Assembly (NCBI RefSeq): GCF_013365495.1
Contig: NZ_CP046580.1
Coordinates: 780,001 to 812,000 of the forward strand
Reading direction: 5' to 3'
Length of the DNA: 32,000 nt
Origin: Candidatus Saccharimonadota bacterium
GTDB taxonomy: Bacteria; Pseudomonadota; Alphaproteobacteria; Rickettsiales; Anaplasmataceae
Shown: piece by piece, positions 7,432 through 32,000 of the stretch
Position numbering within the stretch: position 1 is the first letter of the stretch
How the letters are laid out: every line of letters begins with the position of its first letter
The notes under the pieces: model-generated
Seen by the model: only the letters and a program-made list of their open reading frames with translations
Told to the model about the DNA's origin: nothing
The model's database searches: none
Position numbers and translations under genes: made by a program

Positions 7432-8735
7432 AGCTAATATAAGTTAAAAAACTTCTTAGAAAAATACCATTTCAAACCTTAATAATTTAATAAACTTCCT
7501 TTTTGATCATAACTAATAATAGTAGTAATTATCATAATAATCTTAACACTACCTTAATACTTAAACCTACTTTATTATATTAATTATACTTATACCAAAA
7601 AATTACCTCTTAACTCTCAACATAACTTTATATCACCATTATGAATATTAAGATTTTCATAATTTAGATCCTTTTCACTGCTGTATATAAGTAAGAAAAA
7701 TTTCCTAAAAGCATTATAGTACATTAAAATTTAACTAAAATTAAATCTTTTTATTTTCTTAATAAACTCTAAATTTAAAACCTATACCTATCATTCGCAA
7801 AAATTTATAAAAAGTATAATATCAATAAAGCTACTACTATTTTCTACAAAATTACTGTATATTAAATATACTATAAATATTCATTATATAATATAATTAC
7901 TCCTTTTTTAATTTAAGAATACCACTTAACATCAATTTAAATAATCAAAAGTATTAACAATTATTTCAAAGCAAAAATTTATATAGTATTATCGTCAATA
8001 TAACATAAATAAACATCTTTACTATAAAAAATTTACATTAATAAAATAATAAAATGCAAAGAGATAATTATAAATTAATGTATACTTAAGTTCAATAATA
8101 ACATTGAATATTTCTTTATCACAACTCAATTTAAGATTAAAAAAGTATTAAAAATAATATACTAGAAAAATACTACTATTCAACAATAAAAAGCATCTAG
8201 ATACAAGAACTAACCATGTAAATTATGATAAATGCACACACATTATTCAAATAGCTACAAATCAAAAAGCTAATTTAGACCATTTTAGTAAACTAAAGCA
8301 AAAAACAAAATGAATCCAAACAAAATAACAAATTTATAACTTAATATATTTTATTTACACCAAAAAAATAGAAACTAGTTCAAAGAAAAAAAATATACCT
8401 GTAACAACTATTGTCATTTATAAGTTATAAAAAAAGTAATATACATTATGATAGCTTTACATTAAACTCATTAAAAAATGAATGAAATAATAATTTAAAT
8501 TATAAAGATATATTATTCAATTAATTTAGATAACAAAACAAAAATGATACAGTACATACAGAAGGACTATGTCTCTTAGCAAGAAGATCAGAATATAAAA
8601 ATCAAGAATAAATATTAAGATTACCTACTGCTTGACAAAAAATCACTAAGTTAATAATGAACCTTTAATATCAAAATGAAATAAAACTTGATACTAATAA
8701 AATTAAATTTCTTTATATAAAAAAAGTAAATACAT

Positions 8736-8766
8736 AAAAAATTAATTGACTTTCAATTAATTTTTT
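8736..8766. promoter_or_regulatory. perfect 14-bp inverted repeat (operator or weak bidirectional hairpin) upstream of bcp
   Basis: AAAAAATTAATTGA-CTT-TCAATTAATTTTTT. The left arm contains a TTGACT -35-like hexamer (8746-8751). A T9 run follows. It lies about 60 bp upstream of the bcp ATG. Confidence 0.45.
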
Positions 8767-8824
8767 TTTAACTTAAGCTATTATACATATAAAATGTATC
8801 ATAATAAGTCCATAAAAAAACAAG

Positions 8825-9298: not shown

Positions 9299-10395
9299 AA
9301 ACTACTTGAGTTAATAATGATTTATCTTTACATATAAGAAATCAAGCTACATAATTTTTTAATCTTTTAGCTTAAAAATTATTCAAATAATAATTTAATT
9401 ATAATCCACTTAAGATAATACTAGTAAGGTTATATCATTAATAATATGAGCTTCAATAGTTTTATCACCATTAGCAAAACTAATTAATATCCAGTTTATC
9501 ATTTATAATAAAGTTCTTATAACACTAAAAAATAATCGCACTCCTCAAAAAAAAGTTAATCTCATATAATAAAAATTAATCAAACCTTGAATCAATAACT
9601 AGAGATAAAATTAATATTTTAATTTCTACAAAAATTAAACTATATAACTTCATAGCTAATATCATCATGGCAAAATCAGCAACAGTAAATTTTTTCAAAA
9701 TTTACCCAGTTACCATTTAATACTGATAAAATAAGTACTTACAGCATCACACTACCATAATAATTTCTACAATAAACAAGCACTATAATAAGTAAACTTC
9801 AACAAAATTAATACTAACAAATGCTAGGTATACATAAAAGCTGCAATAACTGCTATCATAACAACCACAAGTTTAAGTTTTAATTAATTTAAAAAAACTC
9901 AGAAAAAAACTATACAAAAAGTACTTACCTAATAATAAAAAATAAACACCCCTTATATTATCTAGATTTTACTTCTTTTAAAGTACTTTTTTTTTCACTA
10001 AATTAACTTACTACAACTAATACCCAACTAAAGTAAAGATTATAATCTCTGCTCAGAATAATAAATGTTTTTAAGTAATAAGATCTCTAATGTATAAAAA
10101 ATATTACAAGGATTATAATTATGTTGTTATCTTTATGTTAGAGCTACCTAATTTTAGATTAAATAAATAAAAAATGAAAAACTTTATAATCATACAAAAA
10201 GCTACAAAATATCAAATAGGTACTACTAAGATAGTATAAGGTAATTACAGGTAGTTTATATTAAAGAAACACGGAAATAATAGCACTTATTTAATAGTAA
10301 TTTAAAATTTCCAATAATAGTCCATTACTTAACATAAAATCATTGCAACAAAAAAATCATTTTACTCTTATAATTTATATGTTAAAAATTAGTTA

Positions 10396-10737
10396 AGGTG
10401 AAATAAGTAGCTGCTGTTGTATAATAATACAGCAGAGGAAAGTCCGGGCTCCAAGGAAAGATAGTGACGGGTAATACCCGCCGGAGGTAACTTTAGTTCA
10501 GGGCTACAGAAAATTACCGCCTAAAAAAACATTTTAGGTAAGGGTGAAAAGGTATGGTAAAAGCATACCAAACCAATGGCAACATTGGTGCTGAGTAACC
10601 AGCACTAGGAGCAAGATTAAATAGAGTAGATTTTATGTTTTCCTCATATCTACTCGGGTAAATCGCACGCAATAAATGGTAACATTTACTCTAGATAAAT
10701 AGCTACATAAACAGAACCCGGCTTACATTTCACCTAA
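10396..10737 (+). ncRNA. rnpB: RNase P RNA (bacterial type A)
   Basis: Conserved blocks GAGGAAAGTCCGGGCTCC, GGTAAGGGTGAAA and ACAGAACCCGGCTTA. P1 pairing of AGGTGAAAT (10396-) with ATTTCACCT (-10735). A perfect TATAAT at 10369-10374 lies upstream. The ends are approximate. Confidence 0.93.
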
Positions 10738-10782
10738 ACAAAAACCTATATAAAAAAGTATTTAATAATAATTACCCTTCAC

Positions 10783-16642: not shown

Positions 16643-19600
16643 TACTTATCCTTATCTTCATTAAGAATAAAAAAATTAATAAACACAACTGTTTAAATAA
16701 TGCCGTACTTTTAAAAGAAAATTTCTTTATACTACTTGGTGCTGAATTTTTTAAAATTATCTAAAATAAGCTTTCCTTTACTATACAATAAAATTTTCAT
16801 ATAATCTTAACCTTAATCATTTATACACACCATTTTACTTAGCATTACTCTATTTTTACAAATATTCACTCATAATTTAAGAACCATAATTTCATTATTT
16901 TTTTCTTTCCTAATCGGCCAATATCATAAATATTATGTATAATTCCATTATATCTCTTCATTTACTTACTCAAATGGCCATGGTATCAAAGTTTAACTAT
17001 ATAGGTATCCACTTTTTCTTTTAATCATTATCCCTAATTAATCAAAAAAAAGTTTACCTATCATCAAAGATAGCATCATCATCACTACCAACAGAAAGAA
17101 AAAAACTTAACTTTTTCTTCCATTTATCTGATTAAAGATAGTATTAAAATTAACACCATATTTCATTTTCATCTACTTTTGACACACTCTATTCGCTGCA
17201 GCACCAACTATTTTATAAAATAGCCTATCTTTTTTCACTAACTTACAATGTTAATAATATTCCTTAATATACCTTACTTAAACACATGATCAAATAATAG
17301 ATTAGAAAGTAATATATACAACTTCTACAGTACACTTGAACCTAGCTTTTCTCTGTAGAAAAAGAGAGCCAAAAAAGAACAACAAATTTTATTATCCCAT
17401 CTTCTTTTTCACTCTCATTTACTATTATTCCTAATATTCTTAAAGTCAAAACTAATTAATACCCCATCATGGATTCACTATCCAAGCCAACATTTCTCTA
17501 ATACCAATTAGACAATACTATCTGCAAATTTAAATATATCAAGCAAATATAATTTTCATCAACAATTTTAAATAATTTTTAGTTTAAACAACAATAAACG
17601 CAGTATATTCCACATATTTTGCACTTCTTTCAAGTCAAAGTCCTGTATACCAATATACGTGTCATCTTTAAAGCTGAAATAGCTGAGTTACAACTCCAAC
17701 AGTCAAACTTTTTTAAAAAAAACTTTATCTTTACTAACAACCTTTATTTCTTTAATACTGCTTTTACAATTTATATACCATTACCACCTCTACTCATTTA
17801 TGTTATAATAAGAGCATATAAATATCTTTAATATATATACCCAAATTTCCTTCAATTAATTCTTTTACCAGCCTTTTTATACCAACACCTAAAAAAAAAG
17901 TAGCCACCAAACCTTTAATTAAACTCTACAGCTGAATTTTTTTATCACATAACCACTTTTACTCTAAGTACTTTTTTATTAGTTTGCAATAAAATTACCT
18001 CTTATAAATTAGTTAAATTTAATGATATCCTTTTTTTAAAGATCTCACCAGTAGTACAACACATATCTACAACAGCAATCTTTAATATACTACAGAAAGC
18101 TTTCTAAATTGAGATTAATAAACATTTAGATTTCTTAAATTTTATCAATTCACGTGAATAAGTTACTGTTTTTAACAAAATGAAAATGCCTTTATTACAT
18201 AAACAATAAATAACTTACTTATTTATCAACATAACAGCATCATAAATCATATTTAATGATTTAATTTATTAACATGTTCCTATCATGTATAAAACAAAAA
18301 AAATACCTTTAAAAAAAACAAAACTTACTCCTTTCTATAAATCATATTGTATCTACTCTTTCATTAATCTAAATTTTATAAAATATTATTAAGACCAATA
18401 ATTATTAAACCACTTCACCTTTTTACTTAGTTACTTCAAATTATCCAATAACCTTTTTTATAATCAAGTTCAAGTATAGTTTTTTTTTACTTCTTAACAA
18501 TTTAATTACTTAATACAATTCAATATTACACACACTATAAGTAATAGATATCCATTACCGAGCAGCTGCAAACAATAAATAAACTATTACATAATTGCAG
18601 TATATATATTATAATCATTTTACTTTTAAGTATTATTTATATATAAACTAACGCCACCGACTTATCAAAATAATATAAATACAAAACTTATACTTTTAAA
18701 AAGTAACTGTAGGAATTATCATAATTATATCAACAACTTGAAGGTATTTTCATTAATTATTTTTAGTACACTTACAAATTTATCAATACCACCAAACTTC
18801 TTAGTAATCTTTGACTTATTTATATCTTCCAAAATAACATTTAAAATACCACTTTTCTTATATTTAAAACTTGCTAACACTATCAACTCCACTTTAAATA
18901 GAAAACTAAAATTTATCTTAAGAGAAACATTCATTTAAAAAATTTCATTCATCAAACAATATTCATTTAGTAATATTTTATTTTCATAACTTAACACTCT
19001 TCAAAAAAGACTCCCTTTTTCACTTTTCTCCCAAGACTAGCATAGCTGTATTCCACTATTTTTACAATATACTCATCCTATTAATTAAAAACATAGTCCC
19101 TTTTGCTATTTGAGAAGTGCCTTCTACTACATATGGATAAAACTCTCTTATAAAAAAGCTTATCAAAACAACTTCATCATACCATTTTTAAGAAAAATTA
19201 ATAGTTAACTATATATTATTCAGTTAAATTTTTCTTATTATTATTTTTTTTATTATTATTACTTCTTTTTCTTTTGAACAATAAAAGAAAATGTCAAAAG
19301 CTCTAGTATCAAATAGTATATCTATATTATTAAACAATTATCCAAACGTTTTGTTTTTATGAACTTGCACATCAAAGATTTTTTTGTGTGACCTATATTA
19401 TATTTCTTAAATAACTGCATCTGTATAAATTTATATAATAACCAGTTAAAAATCTAAATAATAGTAGAACATTAACCTCTAGATAGTAACTACCATACCT
19501 TTAATAATTCAACTCAAAAAATTAAGACAAATCTCAAAAAAAATTACACTACACTATAACCATAATGATTTTTCAAATTTTTTACTCCTCCTTATTACTA

Positions 19601-20263
19601 TCAACATGAAACATGAGTAAAAATAAAGATAAATTCTTTAAATACTTATTATAATCTATCTATTAGAATACAATAATATCCTCATAATCAACTTAAAAAT
19701 CTTTTATTAGTAAATCTAAAAAACAAACTACTTACAAGTATCAATTTTCTCTGGTACTAGAGAAGAATTATAACAACAAAAGCTATATACCAGCATAACC
19801 TTATTACTGTCATTTTAACTATTACCCGCAATAACTAACCTTTTTAACACATTATTTTAATATCAAAACCAATTTTTTCTTTCTACCTTACTTAAAATTT
19901 TCTAGCTTATAATTAACTAATCCTCTTGAAAAAATTTTACAAATACAATACCATCAAATTTTTTATAACCAATATACTTTATATTTTTTGCTAACAACTT
20001 TTCTAACTTTATTCATAGATAAACAACCTACTATTCTTTAATTTTGTTTTTGTAATTTTATTCCTCTCCCAAACTTACGAACTAAAATAACCTTTACCTA
20101 AATACCAAGACTAAATTCTTCAATTACTATAACACACATCACACATGAATAGCCAATACCCATTATATAATAGATAATATTTAAAGCCTGAAAAAACCTT
20201 CAAAAAAGTAAAAAAGGTAAAGTTAATCTACCACTTCCTCTTTTTACTAATTATTACTGCTTC

Positions 20264-23171: not shown

Positions 23172-24251
23172 ATGAACATAGAAAATAATTTACAATATTT
23201 AAAAAAAAAATTTAACGATACAGAAAAAAAATTAGCAAACCCTATCAACTTAAATCAAAAAGAATTTATTAATCTTTCAAAAGAATATTCTGAACTTAAA
23301 CCAATTATTAAAATAATTGATGAATATAATATACTAAAAAAAGAAATTTCAGACTTAGAAGAAATACTTAAAGATGAAAATAATGAATATGAAATAAAAG
23401 AGTTAGCAAAAGAAGAATTTTTTGAAAAACAAAAAGTATTGTTACCAAAAATAAAAAATAAGTTAAAATTAGCATTATTACCTAAAGATGAAGACGATTC
23501 AAGAAATGCAATACTAGAAATTAGAGCAGGCACAGGAGGAGAAGAAGCAGCATTATTCGCAGCAATGTTATTCCGCATGTACCAAAAATATGCAGAAAGA
23601 AGAAACTGGAAATTTGAACCAATAAATGTTTCTAGTACAGAAATAGGTGGCTATAAAGAAGCTTCTGTACTTGTTAATGGAACAGAAGTTTTTGCAAGAT
23701 TAAAATTTGAATCAGGAGTACATAGAGTACAGCGAGTACCAGAAACTGAATCTTCAGGAAGATTACACACTTCAGCAGCTACTGTTGCAGTATTACCTGA
23801 AGTCGAAGAAGTTGATTTTAAAATAGAAGAGAAAGATTTACGAATAGATGTTTATAAATCTAGCGGTCCCGGGGGGCAATCAGTTAATACAACTGATAGC
23901 GCAGTAAGAATCACTCACTTACCTACAGGAATAGTTGTAGTACAGCAAGATGAAAAATCACAGCACAAAAACAAGGCCAAAGCGCTTAAAGTATTAAGAG
24001 CAAGACTATATGAAATTGAAAGACAAAAAAAAGAAATAGAAAGATCAACAATGAGAAAGAATCAAATCGGTTCTGGGGATCGTTCTGAGCGCATAAGAAC
24101 CTATAACTTTCCACAATCAAGAATAACAGATCATAGAATTAATCTAACTTCACATAGACTAGAACAGATTGTAAAGGAAGGTGAGTTAGACGAATTTATT
24201 GAAGCATTAATTTCATATAATGAAGCAGAAAGGTTAGTAGGAGAAAATTAA
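23172..24251 (+). CDS. prfA: peptide chain release factor 1
   Basis: 359 aa. GGQ motif in [24 protein letters not shown]. PxT tripeptide region [17 protein letters not shown]. Confidence 0.96.
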
Positions 24252-24702: not shown

Positions 24703-25992
24703 ATGAAGCTAAATGAAATTAGAGAAAGATTTATAAAATTTTTTGTAAATAACGATCATAAGCATATTTCTTCTTCCTCATTAATCCCAGAAAATGACCA
24801 AACACTCATGTTTACAAATTCTGGTATGGTACAGTTTAAAAATTGCTTCATCGATTCACAAAAAATTGAAACAAAACGTGCTGTTTCGAATCAAAAATGC
24901 TTAAGGGCTGGTGGCAAACACAATGACTTAGAAAATGTTGGCTATACAACTAGACATCACACATTCTTTGAAATGCTTGGAAATTTTAGCTTTGGTGATT
25001 ATTTTAAAGAAACGGCAATAGAACTTGCGTGGAAATTTATTACTAAAGAATTATCTCTTGATAAGAATAGATTATCCGTAACCATCTATCATACTGATGA
25101 TGAATCATACAAGATTTGGCGTAAGGTAAGCGGTCTTTTAGATGATAAAATCATAAGAATCGCAACGGATGATAACTTTTGGAGCATGGGTAATACTGGC
25201 CCATGTGGTCCATGTTCTGAAATCTTTTATGATCATGCAAACCCTAACCTAGAAAACGACGACAAAATTGTTGAAATTTGGAATCTGGTATTCATAGAAT
25301 TTAACAAAAATGAAAAAGGTAATTTACAAAAATTACAAAAAAAATGCATCGATACTGGAATGGGTCTCGAAAGAATAGCTGCCGTGATGCAAAACGTTTA
25401 CGATAATTATGACACTGATTTATTTTTTGCTATAATAAATAAGTCACAAGAATACTGTGGAAATATAGAAAATAAAGTAGCTCACAAAATTATCGCAGAT
25501 CATCTTCGTGCATCTGCATTTCTGATCGCAGAGGGAATACTGCCTGGAAATGAAGGTAGAAATTACGTGTTACGCAGACTAATTAGAAGAGCTGCACGTT
25601 ATATCCACCAACTCGGATATAATAACTCACTACTTCATCACATTTTTCCAGTATTAATAGATAACTCAAGCTCAGCTTACATGGGAGACATTTATCCTGA
25701 GCTAATCAGAGCTAAAAGCTTAATAGAAATGACGTTAAAATCAGAAGAAGAGAATTTTAAAGACACTTTGATAAAAGGCATCAATCTTTTAAAAAAAACT
25801 ACTTTAAATTTTAAACCAGGTGATACTTTTCCAGGAGAATTAGCATTTAAGCTATATGACACTTATGGATTTCCTTTAGATATTACACTCGATATTCTAA
25901 AAGAGAAAAAAATAAATTTTGATCAAAAAGGTTTTGATCATGCAATGGCAAAACAGAAAGAAAGAGGACGTGCTAAATGGGCAAAGATTTAG
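24703..25992 (+). CDS. alaS: alanyl-tRNA synthetase, N-terminal aminoacylation/tRNA-recognition core only (truncated)
   Basis: 429 aa, co-linear with residues 1 to about 457 of E. coli AlaRS. Blocks [86 protein letters not shown]. Ends [13 protein letters not shown] normal bacterial AlaRS is about 870-890 aa. Confidence 0.9.
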
Positions 25993-26170
25993 TAAAAAGT
26001 ATGTTAAGCAATATACGGCTCAATTTAATTGATAGATTTGCACAATAAGATTTTATTAATATAAACCTAATAGCAAAGAAATAAAATACTATCATAATCT
26101 CTCCTAAAACAAAGTTGTAGTTCTACAAAAAGAGGAAAAATTAATCATATTTGACAAAACATCTCTTTGA
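25983..26170 (+). pseudogene. alaS: decayed remnant of the alaS segment that follows the catalytic core
   Basis: Frame 0 (25983-26066) reads [27 protein letters not shown]. Frame 2 (26111-26170) reads KVVVLQKEEKLIIFDKTSL*, compare E. coli EAVVVLDQTPFYAESGGQ. The frames differ from the intact ORF and contain stops. Confidence 0.5.
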
Positions 26171-26998
26171 TAATAAGTAAAAGTGCTAGTAAGAGTATTA
26201 GAAAATATAAGAAAGAACTTTTTTTAATCTTGTATCAAGACACAAATCAAAAAAAAATTAATAGTGTTTCCTCCATTCACTATATAAATTATACCCACTC
26301 AATGCCTAATTAATAGAAAACACAATAAACATTAAAGAGCTATATAAAGTTGCTTAACACAAAATATGATAAAATTAAGTTGTAAATATTAAGATTCTAA
26401 AGAATCTATGCAAAAATACATACATAAAATACACTAGATAATTAGTTCATTAAAAAAAATAGTATGAATATTCTTACTGTATTCAAAATAAGAGAATTGA
26501 AGCTATAACCAACCAAAAAATAATAATTACATCATAATAATGAAATTAATTTTTTAAAAAAAGTCGTAAAATTTGTAAAAGCTCAAGAAATAAGATACAA
26601 ACCGATTAAATGTTTACCAAGAGCATAAAGAGTCAAGCGCTAAAACAAAACACCTTACAAGCTAAATTATTACTCATATTCTTACAAATAGAATAAAAGA
26701 ACTCACCCTATGCAATAAAAGCTAAAAACAATAATAGTTTTTATAACAACAAAAAAATAAATACTTATACACCTCAATCATCCCAATAAATAACGCTAAA
26801 AATAAAATAGAACCGCTAATTTTCTACTACTAAACAACACACTACTAATAAAATAAGTTTTGCAAAAATAAGCAAGAGTTAGCTAATAAAATCAGTATAA
26901 AAGGAAAGTATTTTAATACTACCACCTATCGCTAAAAAAAATCTGTGCTCTGAAAAAACTTCAGCTACCCAAATAAGTTGTAATAGAATAAGCCATTA

Positions 26999-29746
26999 TT
27001 ACAACCTACAAGTAGAGACCGTTGTTGTCTCCCCTGCATTACAAAGATCACTCAATTTAGTTTTGACCATTTCTTCTGTTCCTTGGCAAATACTTTTATT
27101 TTTACTAGTCAGTGTAAATTCAATATCCTTAAAAAACCTACTCCACATACCACACAAATGCTCTTTTATCTTAGGCCATATATCTCTTCTAAAAGTCTCC
27201 CCATTATCAGAAAATACATTACCTACTAAGACTCCTACTTCTTCATAACTTGCTTCAAAATATTGAAGCAATATTCCTACTTCCTTATAAATATCATGTG
27301 CAGAATCCAAAGCTTTTCCTTCTATACTATTTTTATCTCCAATAGCTGATAATCCAAGCTTATTATAATTTAAAGCAATTTGTGCAGGCTTTACTATCTT
27401 TCTATATACCCATCCCCAACCTTGATCTAATAAATTACCTTCACTATCTTTTGATATACTTCTCGGTACATTATTTACTATATTTTCCATCAAAATACCT
27501 ATCAAAGGAGACAATAGAGCCTGACAAAAATGTTTAATATTATCCTTTGTTTTTATTGTAGGATACTTTATACACTTTTCTGCTAAACAGCATTCAAGTT
27601 CTGCCCTCTCTAATAACTTCTCAATCTCTCCTTCATTAAAAATTTCTTGCTTACATAACTTCAATAAATCATCTTCTATTACTGCGAATCTTATTTTTTC
27701 GCGAGATATTAATTCCTCTCTATAATTATTTTCGGTCTTTTCATTTATTAATAACCCTTCTTTCTCTAATCCTAATCTTTCTAATGTTTCCAGAATTTCT
27801 TGATTATTTTTTAAACATAATTCTATTAACTCTACACTTAAAGACCCCTCTTCCTTAGTATTTTTTTCACTATCCAAGTTCTTATTCTGTTCTTCTATTA
27901 CTTTCTTTAATTTTATAGGTTGAGTTAAATATTTTCCTATTTCTTCTCGATAAGAAACAATCCTATTCACCAAACGTTCTTCATTTTCTCCGTCGAATAA
28001 CATGAACACACCAGTATTATCTTCTATATCCCTTATACTCTTCCCTTGCTCTCGAAACAAACTCTTAGTTTTATATTTCATTATTTCTGAATACATTTTA
28101 TCTAATAGGAGGTTTACTTCATGATAAGAACACACATTTATATCTAAATTATAAAACTCACTAAGTAAACTTTGCTTCATATCAATTGTCAAATCTGATT
28201 TATTTAACATCACTTCAGCCTTGCTCACTTTCGATTTTATTAACTCTCGGTAAACACATTGATTAGTAGGTTCAAACTTAAAAATATCTTCAAGTTTTCT
28301 CCTCAAATTATTACCAACTGAATCACTATTTTTGTTTAAGGCTTTATGTATCTCTGGATACATTATCTCCAATTTTTCTTTTATATCCTGATATTTGCGT
28401 TTTCCTCTATTTTTTAATTCTTCAATCAAACTTCTAGCCTTAGAAACAGCCTTTTTCATCTCCTGAGGATATATTTCGTTGTAAACACCAATCACCCCAC
28501 CAGCCATACGTTGTCTCCATTTTGCTCTAAATAAAGGAAGTACACCACTTCTTAAGTTATTTGATATTCTCAAATCCTTCATTATCATTTCCTTTTCAGT
28601 CGGCAACTCTTTACCTTGACTCTTTAATTCCTGTTCTACCAATACTTCCTTAAGTCTTTCTTCTATATCCATCCCTCCTCTTCTCTCTCTTTCTTTCTGT
28701 GCAATTTTAACTACCTGTATAAAAGCAACTCTATAAGCATCCTGTATTAAATGACTTGTTAACTTAAAATCTACCCCATCCACTACTTTAAACCTGAACT
28801 CATTCAATAATTTTTTCAACTTATCATACGTAATACCCTTCCCCCCAAGTTTTACCAATCTCTCAATAAACTTTGCAAATTCTTGAATCAATTTTGTAAT
28901 TACACTCTTAATCTCGCTATATAAATACACAAGACCATTTTTTAAATGAACATTAGCTGACAACTTAAGTATAGTACTGTGTTTCACATTTTGTGCAACA
29001 AATAGCTTACCATTTTTATTTTGACACAAATCTCTAAGTAACTGCCCAAATTGTGGTGGAAACTTAATCTTCATATCCCACGCAACATCTTGGTTAAGAG
29101 TTCCTGTTTCAGGACTTACCTCGCAAAAAGATACTTTAATACTTCGGTATTCATTATGATATAATCCCATACTGATTCTAAGAGCAGCAATTAAAAAATG
29201 AGATAACTCTCTGTTTAAAAGATAAAAAATAGCTAAAGTAAGTGTTGCAGGAATAACCAAGACCATCAACATAGCAATATTAATAAAAATTACTATCACA
29301 GTAAGAACATTATATACTATTTTTTTTAAAATACTTCTACTCACTTTATTTCCTTTTATTTTATTTTCATTAAAACCAGCCTGTGTTTTATCATCTACTT
29401 TGAATCTATTAAATATAACTAATCCCAATGCAACAAAAGCAAGATAAGGAAGCATCAAAACTGATAAGGCCAAACTTAATACCCGTCTTTCTGGACAAGC
29501 TCTATTTATTTCTTTAAATATTTCACTCGATACATTATACCAAGAAGTAAAAAAATCAGAGCTATAACCTTTATAGTGAAATAAACTCAATGGAATATCA
29601 AAAGCAATAACTTGATCCTTACTCCTTAAGTTTTCCCGTTTTTCCAAAAAAGAAATAGATTTTTGTTTTTCTGAATTAATAACAGGCCCTTTTCTATCCA
29701 AACTATTACCATCATCTAAGTCATCAACCTTAATAGCTATACTCAT
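26999..29746 (-). CDS. large hypothetical membrane-associated protein (lineage-specific orphan)
   Basis: 915 aa uninterrupted ORF in about 25% GC DNA. Hydrophobic cluster at about aa 85-200 (VLSLALSVLMLPYLAFVALGLVIF; VLTVIVIFINIAMLMVLVIPATLTLAIFYLL). Long Lys/Glu-rich helical C-terminal region. Lies 57 nt downstream of ileS on the same strand. Confidence 0.8.
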   Translation of the reverse strand: MSIAIKVDDLDDGNSLDRKGPVINSEKQKSISFLEKRENLRSKDQVIAFDIPLSLFHYKGYSSDFFTSWYNVSSEIFKEINRACPERRVLSLALSVLMLPYLAFVALGLVIFNRFKVDDKTQAGFNENKIKGNKVSRSILKKIVYNVLTVIVIFINIAMLMVLVIPATLTLAIFYLLNRELSHFLIAALRISMGLYHNEYRSIKVSFCEVSPETGTLNQDVAWDMKIKFPPQFGQLLRDLCQNKNGKLFVAQNVKHSTILKLSANVHLKNGLVYLYSEIKSVITKLIQEFAKFIERLVKLGGKGITYDKLKKLLNEFRFKVVDGVDFKLTSHLIQDAYRVAFIQVVKIAQKERERRGGMDIEERLKEVLVEQELKSQGKELPTEKEMIMKDLRISNNLRSGVLPLFRAKWRQRMAGGVIGVYNEIYPQEMKKAVSKARSLIEELKNRGKRKYQDIKEKLEIMYPEIHKALNKNSDSVGNNLRRKLEDIFKFEPTNQCVYRELIKSKVSKAEVMLNKSDLTIDMKQSLLSEFYNLDINVCSYHEVNLLLDKMYSEIMKYKTKSLFREQGKSIRDIEDNTGVFMLFDGENEERLVNRIVSYREEIGKYLTQPIKLKKVIEEQNKNLDSEKNTKEEGSLSVELIELCLKNNQEILETLERLGLEKEGLLINEKTENNYREELISREKIRFAVIEDDLLKLCKQEIFNEGEIEKLLERAELECCLAEKCIKYPTIKTKDNIKHFCQALLSPLIGILMENIVNNVPRSISKDSEGNLLDQGWGWVYRKIVKPAQIALNYNKLGLSAIGDKNSIEGKALDSAHDIYKEVGILLQYFEASYEEVGVLVGNVFSDNGETFRRDIWPKIKEHLCGMWSRFFKDIEFTLTSKNKSICQGTEEMVKTKLSDLCNAGETTTVSTCRL

Positions 29747-29803: not shown

Positions 29804-32000
29804 TTAACAAATTAAGCTAATACCAATTATTAAATTTCGATATTTTTTAAAATAAAAATTAACTCCGATTTCTATACTAATTTCCAAAGATGAAGCAAGA
29901 GTTTGCTCTTTGATATACTCACTCCATATATTTACTGCTTTTTTAATTTCTTCATTCTCTGTTTTCATTATCACTCTAATCCTATCAGATATATGAAAAT
30001 TAGCCTGTCTTCTAGTTTCCTGAACAAGCCTTACAATATCCCTCGCAACTCCTTCTAAAACTAATGCATTATTTAGCTCAGTATTTAAAACAACAACTCC
30101 CTTACCATCATCAAATACAGCGGAATATTCACTATCTATCTTTAGCAATAGCTCATATTCACCCCTTTCTATAACATAGCTTTCTGACTCATCCCCTAAA
30201 AATATTTGCTCATCTTCAATTTGCCTCCATTTTTTCTCTTTAACATACTGAATCAGCTTCTTTATTTTACTTGGAATTTTCTTTCCAAGCAGTGAAAAAT
30301 TTAATTTTAACTCTAATGATGCAACATCCTCAAGTCTATTTACCAATTTCAAGCTTTTGATATTCACTTCATCCTTTATCATCTCCTGATAGCCATCTTC
30401 AAGAAAACCACAAAAAAATTTATGATAAATGATCATACTGCTAAGTGGCTGCCTAATACGTATATTAAAAGTATTTCTAATAGAAAAAGCAGCATTACAT
30501 AACTCTCTCACTAAATCCATTTTAGCGATAAGTTTATTATCGTAACTCTCTAACCGTGGAAAACTAGCCAAATGAACAGATATTTCTTCATACTTAAGCC
30601 CTTGCCATATAGTCTCCGTTATAAGCGGCAATAAAGGAGCTGCAGCTTTTAATATATAATAAAAGATCGTATACAGAACATTATAAGCATCAAGTTTATC
30701 CTGATCTAAAGTACTTTTCCAAAAACGTTTACGACTGCGACGAATATACCAATTATTTAATACTTCAAAAAAATCCATCAGAACTTTACAAGCTCCTTGA
30801 GAATTATAATTGTTCATAAAAGTTTGTATACTTTCTACAGTCTTGAAACATTTAGAGATTATGTAACAATCAATAATACTTTGATAATCTTTGCAAATCT
30901 CAGCCTTAATTTCATCTACATTTGCATACATAGTAAAAAAATGATAACTACTCCAAATAGGTTTTACCACGTTCCTTAAAATATCTCGTATTACATTCCC
31001 TTTTTTATCAAACAATAAATTACCACCACAAACAGTAGAGCTAGACAACATAAGAAAACGTAGTGCGTCAGAACCATACTTATCAAAAACCTCCATAGGA
31101 TCCATATAATTATTTAAACGCTTAGATAACTTACGCCCTTTAATATCAAGAATTACACCGTGACATATACAGTTCCTAAATGGTTCACTATCAAATAAAG
31201 CAGTAGATAACACAAAAAGTGTATAAAACCACCCTCTTGTTTGTGCTATATATTCGGTAATAAAATCCGCAGGAAAATTACATTCAAACCACCTCTTATT
31301 TTCAAATGGATAGTGTACTTGTGCAAACGGCACCGAACCAGACTCAAACCAGCAGTCAAACACATCAGATACACGGCGCATAACTGATTTCTCTGTTGGA
31401 TCATCAGGATTTGGTCTTGTCAAAGAATCAATAAATGGTCTATGCAAATCATCTACTTTCACATTAAAATCCCGCTCTAGTTCCTCTATTGAACCATATA
31501 CATCCACTCTTGGATACCTTGCATCATCAGATTTCCATATAGGAATTGGTGTACCCCAAAATCGATTGCGCGAAATTGACCAATCATGTGCCCCTTCAAG
31601 CCACTTCCCAAATCGACCATCTCTTATATGATTTGGTATCCAATTAATTCTTTTATTTAACTCCACCATCCTTTTTTTTAATTTTGTCACAGCAACATAC
31701 CAGGAAGACATAGTGCGATAGATCAAAGGAGTATCAGTTCTCCAACAGTGGGGATAGCTATGAGTATATTCCTCAGTTCTAAACCAGTTCCCTTGTTCTT
31801 TCAACTTCCTTATTACTACATCACTAGCATCAAAAACATGAACTCCAGCTAAATCTGAAACTTCAATAGTAAATTTACCACTACTATCAATTGGACAAAT
31901 GGCTGGAATATTATTATCTTGACAAAGATAAAAATCTTCTTCACCAAATCCAGGAGCAACATGCACAACACCAGTACCATCTTCTGCTACAACATAATTA
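29804..32000 (-). CDS. ileS: isoleucyl-tRNA synthetase, type 2 (eukaryote-like), 5' end outside the window
   Basis: The reading frame stays open to the window edge (NYVVAEDGTGVVHVAPGFGEEDF). KMSKS variant GRKLSKRLNNY. About 720 aa lie after the HxAPGFG block, which fits long type-2 enzymes. Confidence 0.95.
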   Translation of the reverse strand, partial: NYVVAEDGTGVVHVAPGFGEEDFYLCQDNNIPAICPIDSSGKFTIEVSDLAGVHVFDASDVVIRKLKEQGNWFRTEEYTHSYPHCWRTDTPLIYRTMSSWYVAVTKLKKRMVELNKRINWIPNHIRDGRFGKWLEGAHDWSISRNRFWGTPIPIWKSDDARYPRVDVYGSIEELERDFNVKVDDLHRPFIDSLTRPNPDDPTEKSVMRRVSDVFDCWFESGSVPFAQVHYPFENKRWFECNFPADFITEYIAQTRGWFYTLFVLSTALFDSEPFRNCICHGVILDIKGRKLSKRLNNYMDPMEVFDKYGSDALRFLMLSSSTVCGGNLLFDKKGNVIRDILRNVVKPIWSSYHFFTMYANVDEIKAEICKDYQSIIDCYIISKCFKTVESIQTFMNNYNSQGACKVLMDFFEVLNNWYIRRSRKRFWKSTLDQDKLDAYNVLYTIFYYILKAAAPLLPLITETIWQGLKYEEISVHLASFPRLESYDNKLIAKMDLVRELCNAAFSIRNTFNIRIRQPLSSMIIYHKFFCGFLEDGYQEMIKDEVNIKSLKLVNRLEDVASLELKLNFSLLGKKIPSKIKKLIQYVKEKKWRQIEDEQIFLGDESESYVIERGEYELLLKIDSEYSAVFDDGKGVVVLNTELNNALVLEGVARDIVRLVQETRRQANFHISDRIRVIMKTENEEIKKAVNIWSEYIKEQTLASSLEISIEIGVNFYFKKYRNLIIGISLIC

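What the first reader, a model, noticed from the sequence alone, without database searches (positions are those of the whole stretch)
24703..26998. alaS ends after the aminoacylation core, and the editing/C-Ala half appears to have decayed in place
The 429-aa ORF keeps the AlaRS catalytic and tRNA-recognition blocks I could check. It stops at the position equivalent to about residue 455-460 of the 876-aa E. coli enzyme. The next 1 kb has no ORF. Shifted frames still read like the following AlaRS segments: [27 protein letters not shown] at 25983-26066, and KVVVLQKEEKLIIFDKTSL* at 26111-26170, compare VVVLDQTPFYAESGGQ. The nucleotides just after it (gtaaaagtgctagtaag) look like mutated GESGGQ codons. 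I found no trace of the HxxxH or CxxxH editing motifs. The space before the next gene is about 0.3 kb too short for a full C-terminal half. At least two frameshifts plus several stops argue against a single sequencing error. The N-terminal half looks strongly conserved and has a plausible promoter. The E. coli N-terminal 461-residue fragment is known to charge tRNA-Ala. This could therefore be a natural mini-AlaRS lacking editing, which is a nearly universally conserved function. Alternatively it is a dead duplicate.
Basis: partly seen in the sequence, partly recalled or inferred. Interest (0 to 1): 0.8.

Follow-up and report, generated by a model that had tools for sequence, protein, structure and literature searches.

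The report
Wolbachia alanine-tRNA ligase without proofreading half
In the smallest known Wolbachia genome (wDcau, from a filarial worm), the enzyme that loads alanine onto tRNA has kept only its charging half under strong selection, while its proofreading and tRNA-gripping half has rotted in place; if this short enzyme is active, it would be the first mini alanyl-tRNA synthetase I could find reported for a cellular organism.

Summary
ORF 24703-25992 encodes 429 aa, which is the AlaRS catalytic plus tRNA-recognition domains. It ends at about E. coli residue 442, not 455-460.

The 1,006 bases after the stop are the decayed editing and C-Ala half:
- Their alignment to the closest full-length Wolbachia alaS scores 421, against 107±13 for shuffles.
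- About 475 nt are deleted, in 33 lineage-specific indels, and there are 11 in-frame stops.
- The HxxxH region is gone and CGGTH has become CKNTY.
- Mismatches are flat across codon positions (0.24/0.23/0.20).

The N-terminal half has no indel and no stop. Its mismatches are 0.11/0.06/0.25, and dN/dS is about 0.15 on its own branch. It keeps the alanine-pocket residues and the N/D pair that reads G3:U70.

Synteny (prfA, alaS, convergent 915-aa gene, ileS) shows this is the ancestral locus, not a duplicate. The window is from wDcau (863,427 bp). GenBank lists no protein for this gene.

All 15 other Wolbachia examined keep full-length alaS with both editing motifs. The sister strain wCtub has one poly-A frameshift.

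Best reading: a selected, editing-less bacterial mini-AlaRS. Activity, a second copy elsewhere and trans-editing remain untested. The only described natural mini-AlaRS I found is from Tupanvirus.

The parts
23172..24251 (+). prfA (peptide chain release factor 1), the upstream neighbour
   Evidence: Pfam PCRF and RF-1 domains. Exact match to QKX01292.1 of Wolbachia endosymbiont of Dipetalonema caudispina. prfA also lies upstream of alaS in wCtub and in L004 and L010.
24703..25992 (+). alaS-N: a 429-codon ORF for the AlaRS catalytic and tRNA-recognition domains, ending in TAG
   Evidence: PF01411 positions 1-434 of 552. Aligns to E. coli AlaRS fragment residues 5-436. 83-87% identical to Wolbachia AlaRS over residues 1-427. 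dN/dS 0.08-0.14 pairwise and 0.15 on its own branch. Keeps R69, W170, N212, D235, G237 and the N/D pair (E. coli numbering, read from the alignment).
25981..25992 (+). Truncating lesion: one extra base relative to four relatives shifts the frame and creates TAG at 25990-25992
   Evidence: In the five-way DNA alignment the window reads GGGCAAAGATTTAG where relatives read GGGC-TGGATCTGG (wLbra, wPaur) or GGAT-AGGGTCTGG (wCtub). A second +1 insertion follows about 30 nt later.
25993..26170 (+). Remnant block 1: the linker and the start of the editing domain (L004 codons about 431-497), read through two frame shifts with stops
Evidence: DNA alignment. tblastn 26004-26117 in frame 3.
26171..26378 (+). 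Heavily deleted stretch. The GESGGQ region, the Wolbachia-specific insert and the HxxxH editing motif are missing.
   Evidence: The largest window-specific deletions (154 and 127 nt) are in the multiple alignment. A 52-nt gap covers RRNHSATHLLHFALRK of L004, near 26263.
26379..26525 (+). Editing-core remnant. CGGTH has become CKNTY (Cys 26409-26411, His to Tyr 26421-26423), with three in-frame stops.
   Evidence: tblastn at 33-43% identity over 49 aa against all 15 Wolbachia relatives, best 31.6 bits against a shuffle maximum of 26.9.
26536..26656 (+). Remnant of the start of C-Ala: NNEINFLKKVVKFVKA at 26536-26583 (frame 1) and NRLNVYQEHKESSAKTKHL at 26600-26656 (frame 2)
   Evidence: tblastn at 75-81% and 52-65% identity, colinear with the other blocks.
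26657..26998 (+). Remnant of the C-Ala globular part, including KTIIVFITTKK at 26725-26757. It runs up to the stop codon of the next gene.
   Evidence: DNA alignment to L004 codons about 771-900. tblastn 9 of 11 identical residues.
26999..29746 (-). Convergent 915-aa hypothetical protein, which marks the conserved end of the alaS locus
   Evidence: Exact match to QKX01293.1 (GOY14_03120), the accession immediately after prfA. Homologues lie directly after full-length alaS in L003, L004, L006, L009, L010, L016 and wCtub.

Best explanation
This is the ancestral alaS of Wolbachia wDcau. A +1 frameshift truncated it after codon 429.

[quoted passage not shown] It corresponds to the E. coli 1-441 / N461 and Aquifex N453 catalytic fragments. 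It has been held by purifying selection.

**Inferred function.** It most likely serves as the cell's AlaRS. It would activate alanine and charge tRNA-Ala through the G3:U70 acceptor-stem contact. It would probably act as a monomer with weak tRNA affinity, because C-Ala, the dimerisation and elbow-binding module, is gone.

**What is lost.** The editing domain is destroyed, so the enzyme cannot clear Ser-tRNA-Ala or Gly-tRNA-Ala in cis. The symbiont then either tolerates Ala-to-Ser/Gly mistranslation or relies on an unidentified factor acting in trans.

**Shown here:** the truncation, the in-place decay, the orthology of the locus, and selection on the N-terminal half.

**Inferred:** expression, charging activity, oligomeric state, mischarging, and absence of any backup.
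For: **Domain content and boundary.**

**The remnant is homologous and neutrally decayed.**
- Alignment score 421 against 107±13 for shuffles.
- Mismatches by codon position 0.238/0.227/0.204. Functional C-terminal halves among relatives show about 0.18/0.12/0.29.
- 24 deletions (475 nt), 9 insertions (48 nt), and 11 stops in 310 projected codons.
- Substitutions on the window's branch are dominated by G>A and C>T.

**The N-terminal half is under selection.**
- No indels and no stops in 1,278 nt. At the remnant's indel density about 29 would be expected (my arithmetic).
- Mismatches 0.112/0.061/0.251.
- dN/dS 0.076-0.138 against 15 relatives, whose own mean is 0.080.
- On the window-specific branch, 45 synonymous and 28 nonsynonymous changes, omega 0.154.
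- Only 3 changes at 209 columns invariant in the other Wolbachia, within the leave-one-out range of 0-9.
- Alanine-pocket residues and the N/D pair are retained.

**Orthologous locus.**

**Not an artefact.** Same sequence in two re-assembled runs.

**Precedent for activity.**
- Tupanvirus mini-AlaRS charges tRNA-Ala and rescues a yeast knockout.
- Aquifex N453 charges a minihelix.
- E. coli N461 binds tRNA poorly, with Kd > 32 uM (PMC10036535).

**No intact C-terminal half found.** A protein search with a Wolbachia C-terminal half found none from the wDcau chromosome or its sequencing runs, although it did recover the wCtub fragment.
Against: - There is no expression, proteomic or enzymatic evidence.
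- I could not read the rest of the 863-kb genome. A second alaS, a relocated C-terminal gene, AlaX or DTD are therefore not excluded.
- The protein search used for that check is demonstrably incomplete. It missed the 87%-identical wCtub ORF.
- The E. coli N461 fragment binds tRNA poorly, and the wDcau protein shows no obvious compensating changes.
- GenBank lists no protein for this gene, which implies the annotators treated it as a pseudogene.
Confidence: 0.72

Rival explanations
1. The whole gene is a pseudogene. The N-terminal ORF is a non-functional leftover, and alanine charging comes from elsewhere, either a second alaS in the genome or an imported host enzyme.
For: GenBank gives no protein product between prfA (QKX01292.1) and the 915-aa gene (QKX01293.1). 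The genome is highly degraded (PMC8116671). The rest of the genome could not be searched.
Against: The two halves decayed very differently: 33 indels and 11 stops in the C-terminal half against none in the N-terminal half. Omega is 0.15 on the wDcau branch. Invariant residues are kept. If a redundant copy existed, nothing would maintain this fragment. Synteny shows this is the ancestral locus. No second AlaRS from the 863,427-bp contig appeared in either protein search, which is weak negative evidence.
Confidence: 0.12
2. This is a split AlaRS. The N-terminal protein works with an editing/C-Ala protein or an AlaX-type factor encoded elsewhere in the genome, so editing is kept in trans.
For: There are precedents: the split AlaRS of Nanoarchaeum (PMC10036535) and free-standing AlaX (PMC7373986). 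The rest of the genome was not searchable.
Against: The C-terminal half was not moved; it decayed in place. The search with a Wolbachia C-terminal half returned about 17 Wolbachia-like hits, none from the wDcau contig or its runs.
Confidence: 0.1
3. It is a sequencing or assembly artefact, or a frameshift rescued by slippage, so that a full-length AlaRS is really made.
For: Homopolymer errors are common in AT-rich genomes. The sister strain wCtub has exactly such a poly-A frameshift.
Against: In the restored frame, stops follow within 14 codons. About 475 nt are missing, including HxxxH, and there are 11 stops. The sequence is identical in two re-assembled runs.
Confidence: 0.01
4. The N-terminal fragment is retained for some function other than tRNA-Ala charging, for example a role that needs only alanyl-adenylate formation.
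For: Selection shows only that some function is kept, not which one.
Against: Conservation extends across the whole tRNA-recognition domain, including the N/D pair that reads G3:U70 and the YDTYGFP motif. These would be dispensable for an adenylate-only role.
Confidence: 0.05

Closest known systems
Tupanvirus mini-AlaRS (TuAlaRS, 461 aa; Antika et al. 2023, PMC10036535)
   Same: [quoted passage not shown]
   Different: TuAlaRS is viral and of eukaryotic type, and it works in a host cytoplasm that has full AlaRS and AlaX. It lacks the conserved N/D pair and evolved tight acceptor-stem binding. The wDcau protein is bacterial, keeps N/D, shows no obvious remodelling, would be the cell's only AlaRS, and still has the decayed half lying next to it. 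TuAlaRS activity was measured; here it was not.
Engineered catalytic fragments: E. coli AlaRS 1-441 (3hxu) and N461, and Aquifex aeolicus N453 (1riq)
   Same: The domain boundary is almost the same: the ORF ends at about E. coli residue 442. These fragments activate alanine and charge acceptor-stem substrates (PMC10036535, and established knowledge).
   Different: Those are laboratory truncations. E. coli N461 binds tRNA poorly. The wDcau form is natural and under selection.
Editing-deficient aaRSs of host-restricted organisms (Mycoplasma LeuRS, PheRS and ThrRS; microsporidia; the Melnikov et al. 2018 survey, as cited in PMC11415595, PMC10057733 and PMC7373986)
   Same: A reduced-genome intracellular bacterium losing aaRS proofreading through genome erosion. 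The predicted outcome is a statistical proteome.
   Different: Here AlaRS loses the entire editing domain and also C-Ala. AlaRS is described as keeping its prototype structure throughout biology (PMC10036535). I could not read the 2018 survey, so I do not know whether comparable AlaRS truncations are listed there.
Split AlaRS of Nanoarchaeum equitans
   Same: AlaRS function is divided at the gene level.
   Different: There both pieces are intact and cooperate, and the split lies inside the tRNA-recognition domain. Here the second piece is destroyed.
C. elegans mitochondrial AlaRS (PMC8887476)
   Same: A natural AlaRS with a reduced C-terminus.
   Different: It keeps the editing domain and a residual C-Ala. 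It is organellar and nuclear-encoded.

Membership tests
AlaRS aminoacylation domain (class IIc, Pfam PF01411) | [quoted passage not shown] | tested here: met
   E = 9.2e-170, 566 bits against a cut-off of 30.3, model positions 1-434 of 552. E = 2.7e-136 to the E. coli fragment 3hxu.
AlaRS aminoacylation domain (class IIc, Pfam PF01411) | Alanine-pocket residues (E. coli R69, W170, N212, D235, G237) and the motif 3 region DTGMGLER | tested here: met
   All are identical in the alignment: [40 protein letters not shown].
AlaRS aminoacylation domain (class IIc, Pfam PF01411) | Conserved Asn/Asp pair of the tRNA-recognition domain that reads G3:U70 | tested here: met
   PGNEGR and LYDTYGFP align to E. 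coli SNENR and LYDTYGFP. The role of the pair is as described in PMC10036535.
Canonical full-length bacterial AlaRS | Editing domain with HxxxH and CxxxH motifs (tRNA_SAD, PF07973) | tested here: not met
   No PF07973 match. The HxxxH region is deleted and CGGTH has become CKNTY with stops. All 15 Wolbachia relatives keep both motifs.
Canonical full-length bacterial AlaRS | C-Ala domain (helical part plus DHHA1-like globular part) | tested here: not met
   Only frameshifted remnants remain at 26536-26998.
Natural mini-AlaRS (TuAlaRS type) | The product contains only the aminoacylation domain | tested here: met
Natural mini-AlaRS (TuAlaRS type) | Charges G3:U70 tRNA-Ala and supports growth | not testable with these tools
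   Needs enzymology or complementation. The only indirect support is purifying selection.
Natural mini-AlaRS (TuAlaRS type) | [quoted passage not shown] | not testable with these tools
   No unusual substitutions suggest it: only H31N, T50I and A422G at otherwise invariant columns.
Whole-gene pseudogene | Relaxed selection and disruptions along the entire former coding region | tested here: not met
   The C-terminal half fits this and the N-terminal half does not: omega 0.15, no indels, no stops.
Duplicate (paralogous) dead copy | Located away from the ancestral locus, with an intact copy elsewhere | tested here: inconclusive
   The locus is the ancestral one by synteny. The presence of another copy could not be checked genome-wide. 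None was seen in the protein searches.
Split AlaRS (Nanoarchaeum type) | A second intact ORF encoding the remaining domains | tested here: not met
   No ORF longer than 48 aa lies in 25993-26998 and the remnant is riddled with stops. Elsewhere in the genome this was not testable.
Editing-deficient aaRS of host-restricted bacteria | Reduced-genome obligate intracellular organism with lost editing-site residues | tested here: met
   wDcau is 863,427 bp and 28% G+C. The editing motifs are destroyed.
Editing-deficient aaRS of host-restricted bacteria | Measured mistranslation (Ser or Gly at Ala codons) | not testable with these tools
   Needs proteomics.

The most novel reading that the evidence does not exclude
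wDcau is a cellular organism whose only alanyl-tRNA synthetase is a 48-kDa aminoacylation-only enzyme. It would have no cis editing, no C-Ala and no trans-editing backup. It would therefore live with constitutive Ser/Gly misincorporation at alanine codons. This may reflect a relaxation that began in the supergroup J ancestor, because the sister strain wCtub carries a poly-A frameshift just before its editing domain.
Probability: 0.4. Interest if true: 0.75.

Novelty: new member of a known kind. Interest (0 to 1): 0.6.

Why it matters
AlaRS editing is regarded as one of the most strongly defended quality-control steps in translation. Evidence for this includes the redundant AlaX factors, the phenotypes of the E. 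coli C666A mutant, and neurodegeneration in editing-defective mice. AlaRS is also described as the one synthetase that keeps its four-domain structure throughout biology (PMC10036535).

A bacterium that has kept only the charging half under selection would give three things:
- A natural test of how much alanine mischarging a cell can tolerate.
- A bacterial counterpart to the single viral mini-AlaRS, one that keeps the canonical G3:U70-reading residues.
- A dated series of the loss, from intact alaS in other Wolbachia, through the poly-A frameshift in wCtub, to the decayed half in wDcau.

It also corrects the annotation. As deposited, the genome appears to lack any AlaRS protein.

Tried and rejected
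- **tblastn of partial Wolbachia AlaRS proteins against the whole window** gave only chance-level downstream hits, E 2-10. The signal appeared only with full-length relatives and the restricted region.
- **My colinear-chain score** did not discriminate, because it summed many tiny hits: 185 against 161±12. I replaced it with the best single hit and a global DNA alignment with shuffles.
I identified the organism by exact protein look-up instead.
- **I suspected that the neighbouring ileS was also truncated**, because an ORF was listed as starting with GTG at 31966. I rejected this: the frame stays open to the end of the window.
- **The promoter/terminator scan** gave fewer promoter-like sites than shuffles and no terminator, so it is uninformative.
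- **Melnikov et al. 2018** could not be read. Literature searches for a truncated AlaRS in endosymbionts or Wolbachia found nothing specific.
- **Split alaS gene calls in other assemblies** (L083, L087) were set aside as likely single frameshifts.
- **Rfam** found nothing in the locus.
Full report
**Source of the window.** The window has 27.9% G+C. Four of its proteins are exact matches to GenBank proteins of Wolbachia endosymbiont of Dipetalonema caudispina (wDcau), on a contig of 863,427 bp:

| Window protein | Accession |
|---|---|
| HtpG | QKX01275.1 |
| EF-P | QKX01279.1 |
| PrfA | QKX01292.1 |
| 915-aa hypothetical | QKX01293.1 |

. wDcau is the complete supergroup J genome of Lefoulon et al. 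2020. It is the smallest Wolbachia genome reported there and has 28% G+C (PMC8116671). PrfA and the 915-aa protein flank the finding and carry consecutive accessions. The 429-aa product is known only from Logan re-assemblies. The deposited annotation therefore gives alaS no protein product.

**The observation.** ORF 24703-25992 (+) encodes 429 aa.
- It matches the AlaRS class II core, PF01411 positions 1-434 of 552, at E = 9e-170. There is no tRNA_SAD or DHHA1 match.
- It aligns to residues 5-436 of the E. coli AlaRS 1-441 crystal fragment.
- No ORF longer than 48 aa lies between the stop and the next gene at 26999.
- Logan assemblies of two runs from the original study (SRR10902913, SRR10900510) give the identical ORF, and identical DNA for 217 and 423 nt past the stop.

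**Relatives.** All 15 Wolbachia species representatives recovered have alaS ORFs of 849-906 codons, as do an Anaplasmataceae MAG, an Anaplasma-like symbiont and two Ehrlichia. All 15 Wolbachia keep HxxTH and CGGTH. In seven relatives, including wCtub, alaS is followed by the convergent homologue of the 915-aa gene and then by ileS, as in the window. The window locus is therefore the orthologous, ancestral alaS and not a stray duplicate.

**The downstream kilobase is the decayed C-terminal half.** tblastn with the C-terminal halves of the 15 relatives gives colinear hits in shifting frames:

| Window coordinates | Matches relative residues |
|---|---|
| 26004-26117 | about 434-473 |
| 26379-26525 | about 650-719 |
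| 26536-26583 | (next colinear block) |
| 26600-26656 | (next colinear block) |
| 26725-26757 | (next colinear block) |

.
- The best hit scores 31.6 bits, against 20.8±1.8 (maximum 26.9) in 100 dinucleotide shuffles.
- At the DNA level, 25993-26998 aligns to the C-terminal coding DNA of the closest full-length relative (L004) with score 421. Shuffles give 106.8±12.7 and the reversed sequence gives 120.5.
- In a multiple alignment with wCtub and six outgroups, the window has 24 lineage-specific deletions (475 nt), 9 insertions (48 nt) and 11 stops among 310 projected codons. wCtub has no lineage-specific indels.
- The HxxxH stretch lies in a deletion near 26263.
- The CxxxH stretch survives as VVNIKILKNLCKNTYIKYTR*, with His changed to Tyr and three stops.
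- The truncating lesion is one extra base at about 25981-25985. A second +1 insertion lies about 30 nt later.
The GESGGQ guess is not.

**Selection.** Against L004, mismatches by codon position are 0.112/0.061/0.251 in the N-terminal part and 0.238/0.227/0.204 in the remnant. Functional C-terminal halves among relatives show about 0.18/0.12/0.29.
- Pairwise dN/dS for the N-terminal part is 0.076-0.138 against 15 relatives, whose own mean is 0.080.
- With changes polarised by wCtub and six outgroups, the wDcau branch carries 45 synonymous and 28 nonsynonymous changes, omega 0.154. The wCtub branch gives 0.097.
- On the same branch the remnant changed at 0.38/0.39/0.30 per site by former codon position, mostly G>A and C>T.
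- The N-terminal part has no indel in 1,278 nt. At the remnant's indel density about 29 would be expected (my arithmetic).
- It differs at only 3 of 209 columns invariant in the other 16 Wolbachia (H31N, T50I, A422G), within the leave-one-out range of 0-9.
- R69, W170, N212, D235, G237 and the Asn/Asp pair that reads G3:U70 are all present.
- The catalytic fragment has therefore stayed under normal purifying selection during the long period in which the other half drifted. This is hard to reconcile with a dead gene or with a redundant intact copy.

**The sister strain.** Logan contigs L084-L086 are wCtub: PrfA is 100% identical to QKX01420.1, and the 911-aa neighbour is QKX01421.1.
- Its alaS is full length except for a frameshift in an A11 tract after codon about 518. 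One run shows A10, and neither length restores the frame.
- The 390 downstream codons are intact, keep HSAIH and CSGTH, and still show a purifying pattern of 0.079/0.080/0.222.
- RefSeq names the 526-aa N-terminal ORF alanine--tRNA ligase.
- The destruction in wDcau therefore came after the split from wCtub. Whether wCtub makes a full-length protein by slippage is unknown.

**Is there another copy?** I could not scan the wDcau chromosome.
- A protein search with the L004 C-terminal half returned about 17 Wolbachia-like hits.
- The four hits known only from Logan assemblies trace to other samples: wCtub runs, SRR10988555, SRR21069192 and SRR3480637.
- No hit lies on an 863,427-bp contig.
- This is weak negative evidence, because the same tool missed the wCtub N-terminal ORF.

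**Mechanism.** The product should behave like the known catalytic fragments.
- E. coli N461 and Aquifex N453 charge acceptor-stem substrates, and the Tupanvirus 461-aa mini-AlaRS charges tRNA-Ala and rescues a yeast knockout (PMC10036535).
- E. coli N461 binds tRNA poorly, with Kd > 32 uM. Nothing in the wDcau sequence suggests compensation. A slow enzyme suited to a slow-growing symbiont is the likeliest picture.
- Without an editing domain, Ser- and Gly-tRNA-Ala cannot be cleared in cis. Tolerance of mistranslation, as reported for Mycoplasma and other host-restricted bacteria (PMC10057733, PMC11415595), is the default expectation. A factor acting in trans is not excluded.

**Novelty.** Loss of editing in host-restricted bacteria is known. 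One natural mini-AlaRS, from a virus, is described, and its authors call it the only natural aaRS with just the aminoacylation domain that functions normally. In the held library, 'mini-AlaRS' appears in only two papers and neither reports a bacterial case. I could not read the 2018 survey of editing-domain loss. I therefore rate this as a new, bacterial and independently evolved member of a known kind. It is of moderate to high interest, conditional on biochemical confirmation.

Noticed in passing
L084:3659-3669 (wCtub, Logan SRR10898805). The same site is in L085 and L086.: The sister strain's alaS has a single frameshift in an A11 tract (A10 in one run) just before the editing domain. The 390 downstream codons are intact and still look selected. 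This could be rescue by transcriptional slippage, or a very recent first step toward the wDcau state. RefSeq names the 526-aa N-terminal ORF as AlaRS.
   Followed up: partly
window 16643-20263: A 3.6-kb stretch with no ORF of 70 aa or more inside it except one, with 21-26% G+C and GC skew of about -0.5, like the minus-strand genes nearby. It is probably another large gene decayed in place.
   Followed up: no
window 24703-25992 versus the GenBank annotation: PrfA (QKX01292.1) and the 915-aa protein (QKX01293.1) have consecutive accessions, and the 429-aa product is absent from NCBI sources. As deposited, the genome therefore appears to encode no AlaRS protein.
   Followed up: partly
window 10395-10740 (+): Bacterial RNase P RNA class A, 260 bits, full length.
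   Followed up: no
window 29804-31999 (-): ileS runs off the end of the window. The visible part keeps the GTGVVHVAPGFGEEDF stretch at the end of the CP1 editing domain, so at least this editing motif of IleRS is not decayed, unlike that of AlaRS.
   Followed up: partly
L083:6001-8601 (GCA_902636535.1) and L087:1865-4368 (SRR10988555): Other Wolbachia assemblies also call alaS as two adjacent ORFs (622+242 aa and 368+455 aa). These are probably single homopolymer frameshifts or sequencing errors. They suggest that alaS is prone to frameshifts in Wolbachia.
   Followed up: no
window 26999-29746 (-): A 915-aa protein with no Pfam match. It is conserved in position next to alaS across Wolbachia but diverges fast: 47-75% identity, against 72-82% for the neighbouring IleRS. 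It looks fragmented in L016.
   Followed up: no
window 7432-8824 and 9299-10394: Further long stretches without ORFs of 90 aa or more, consistent with the generally degraded state of this genome.
   Followed up: no
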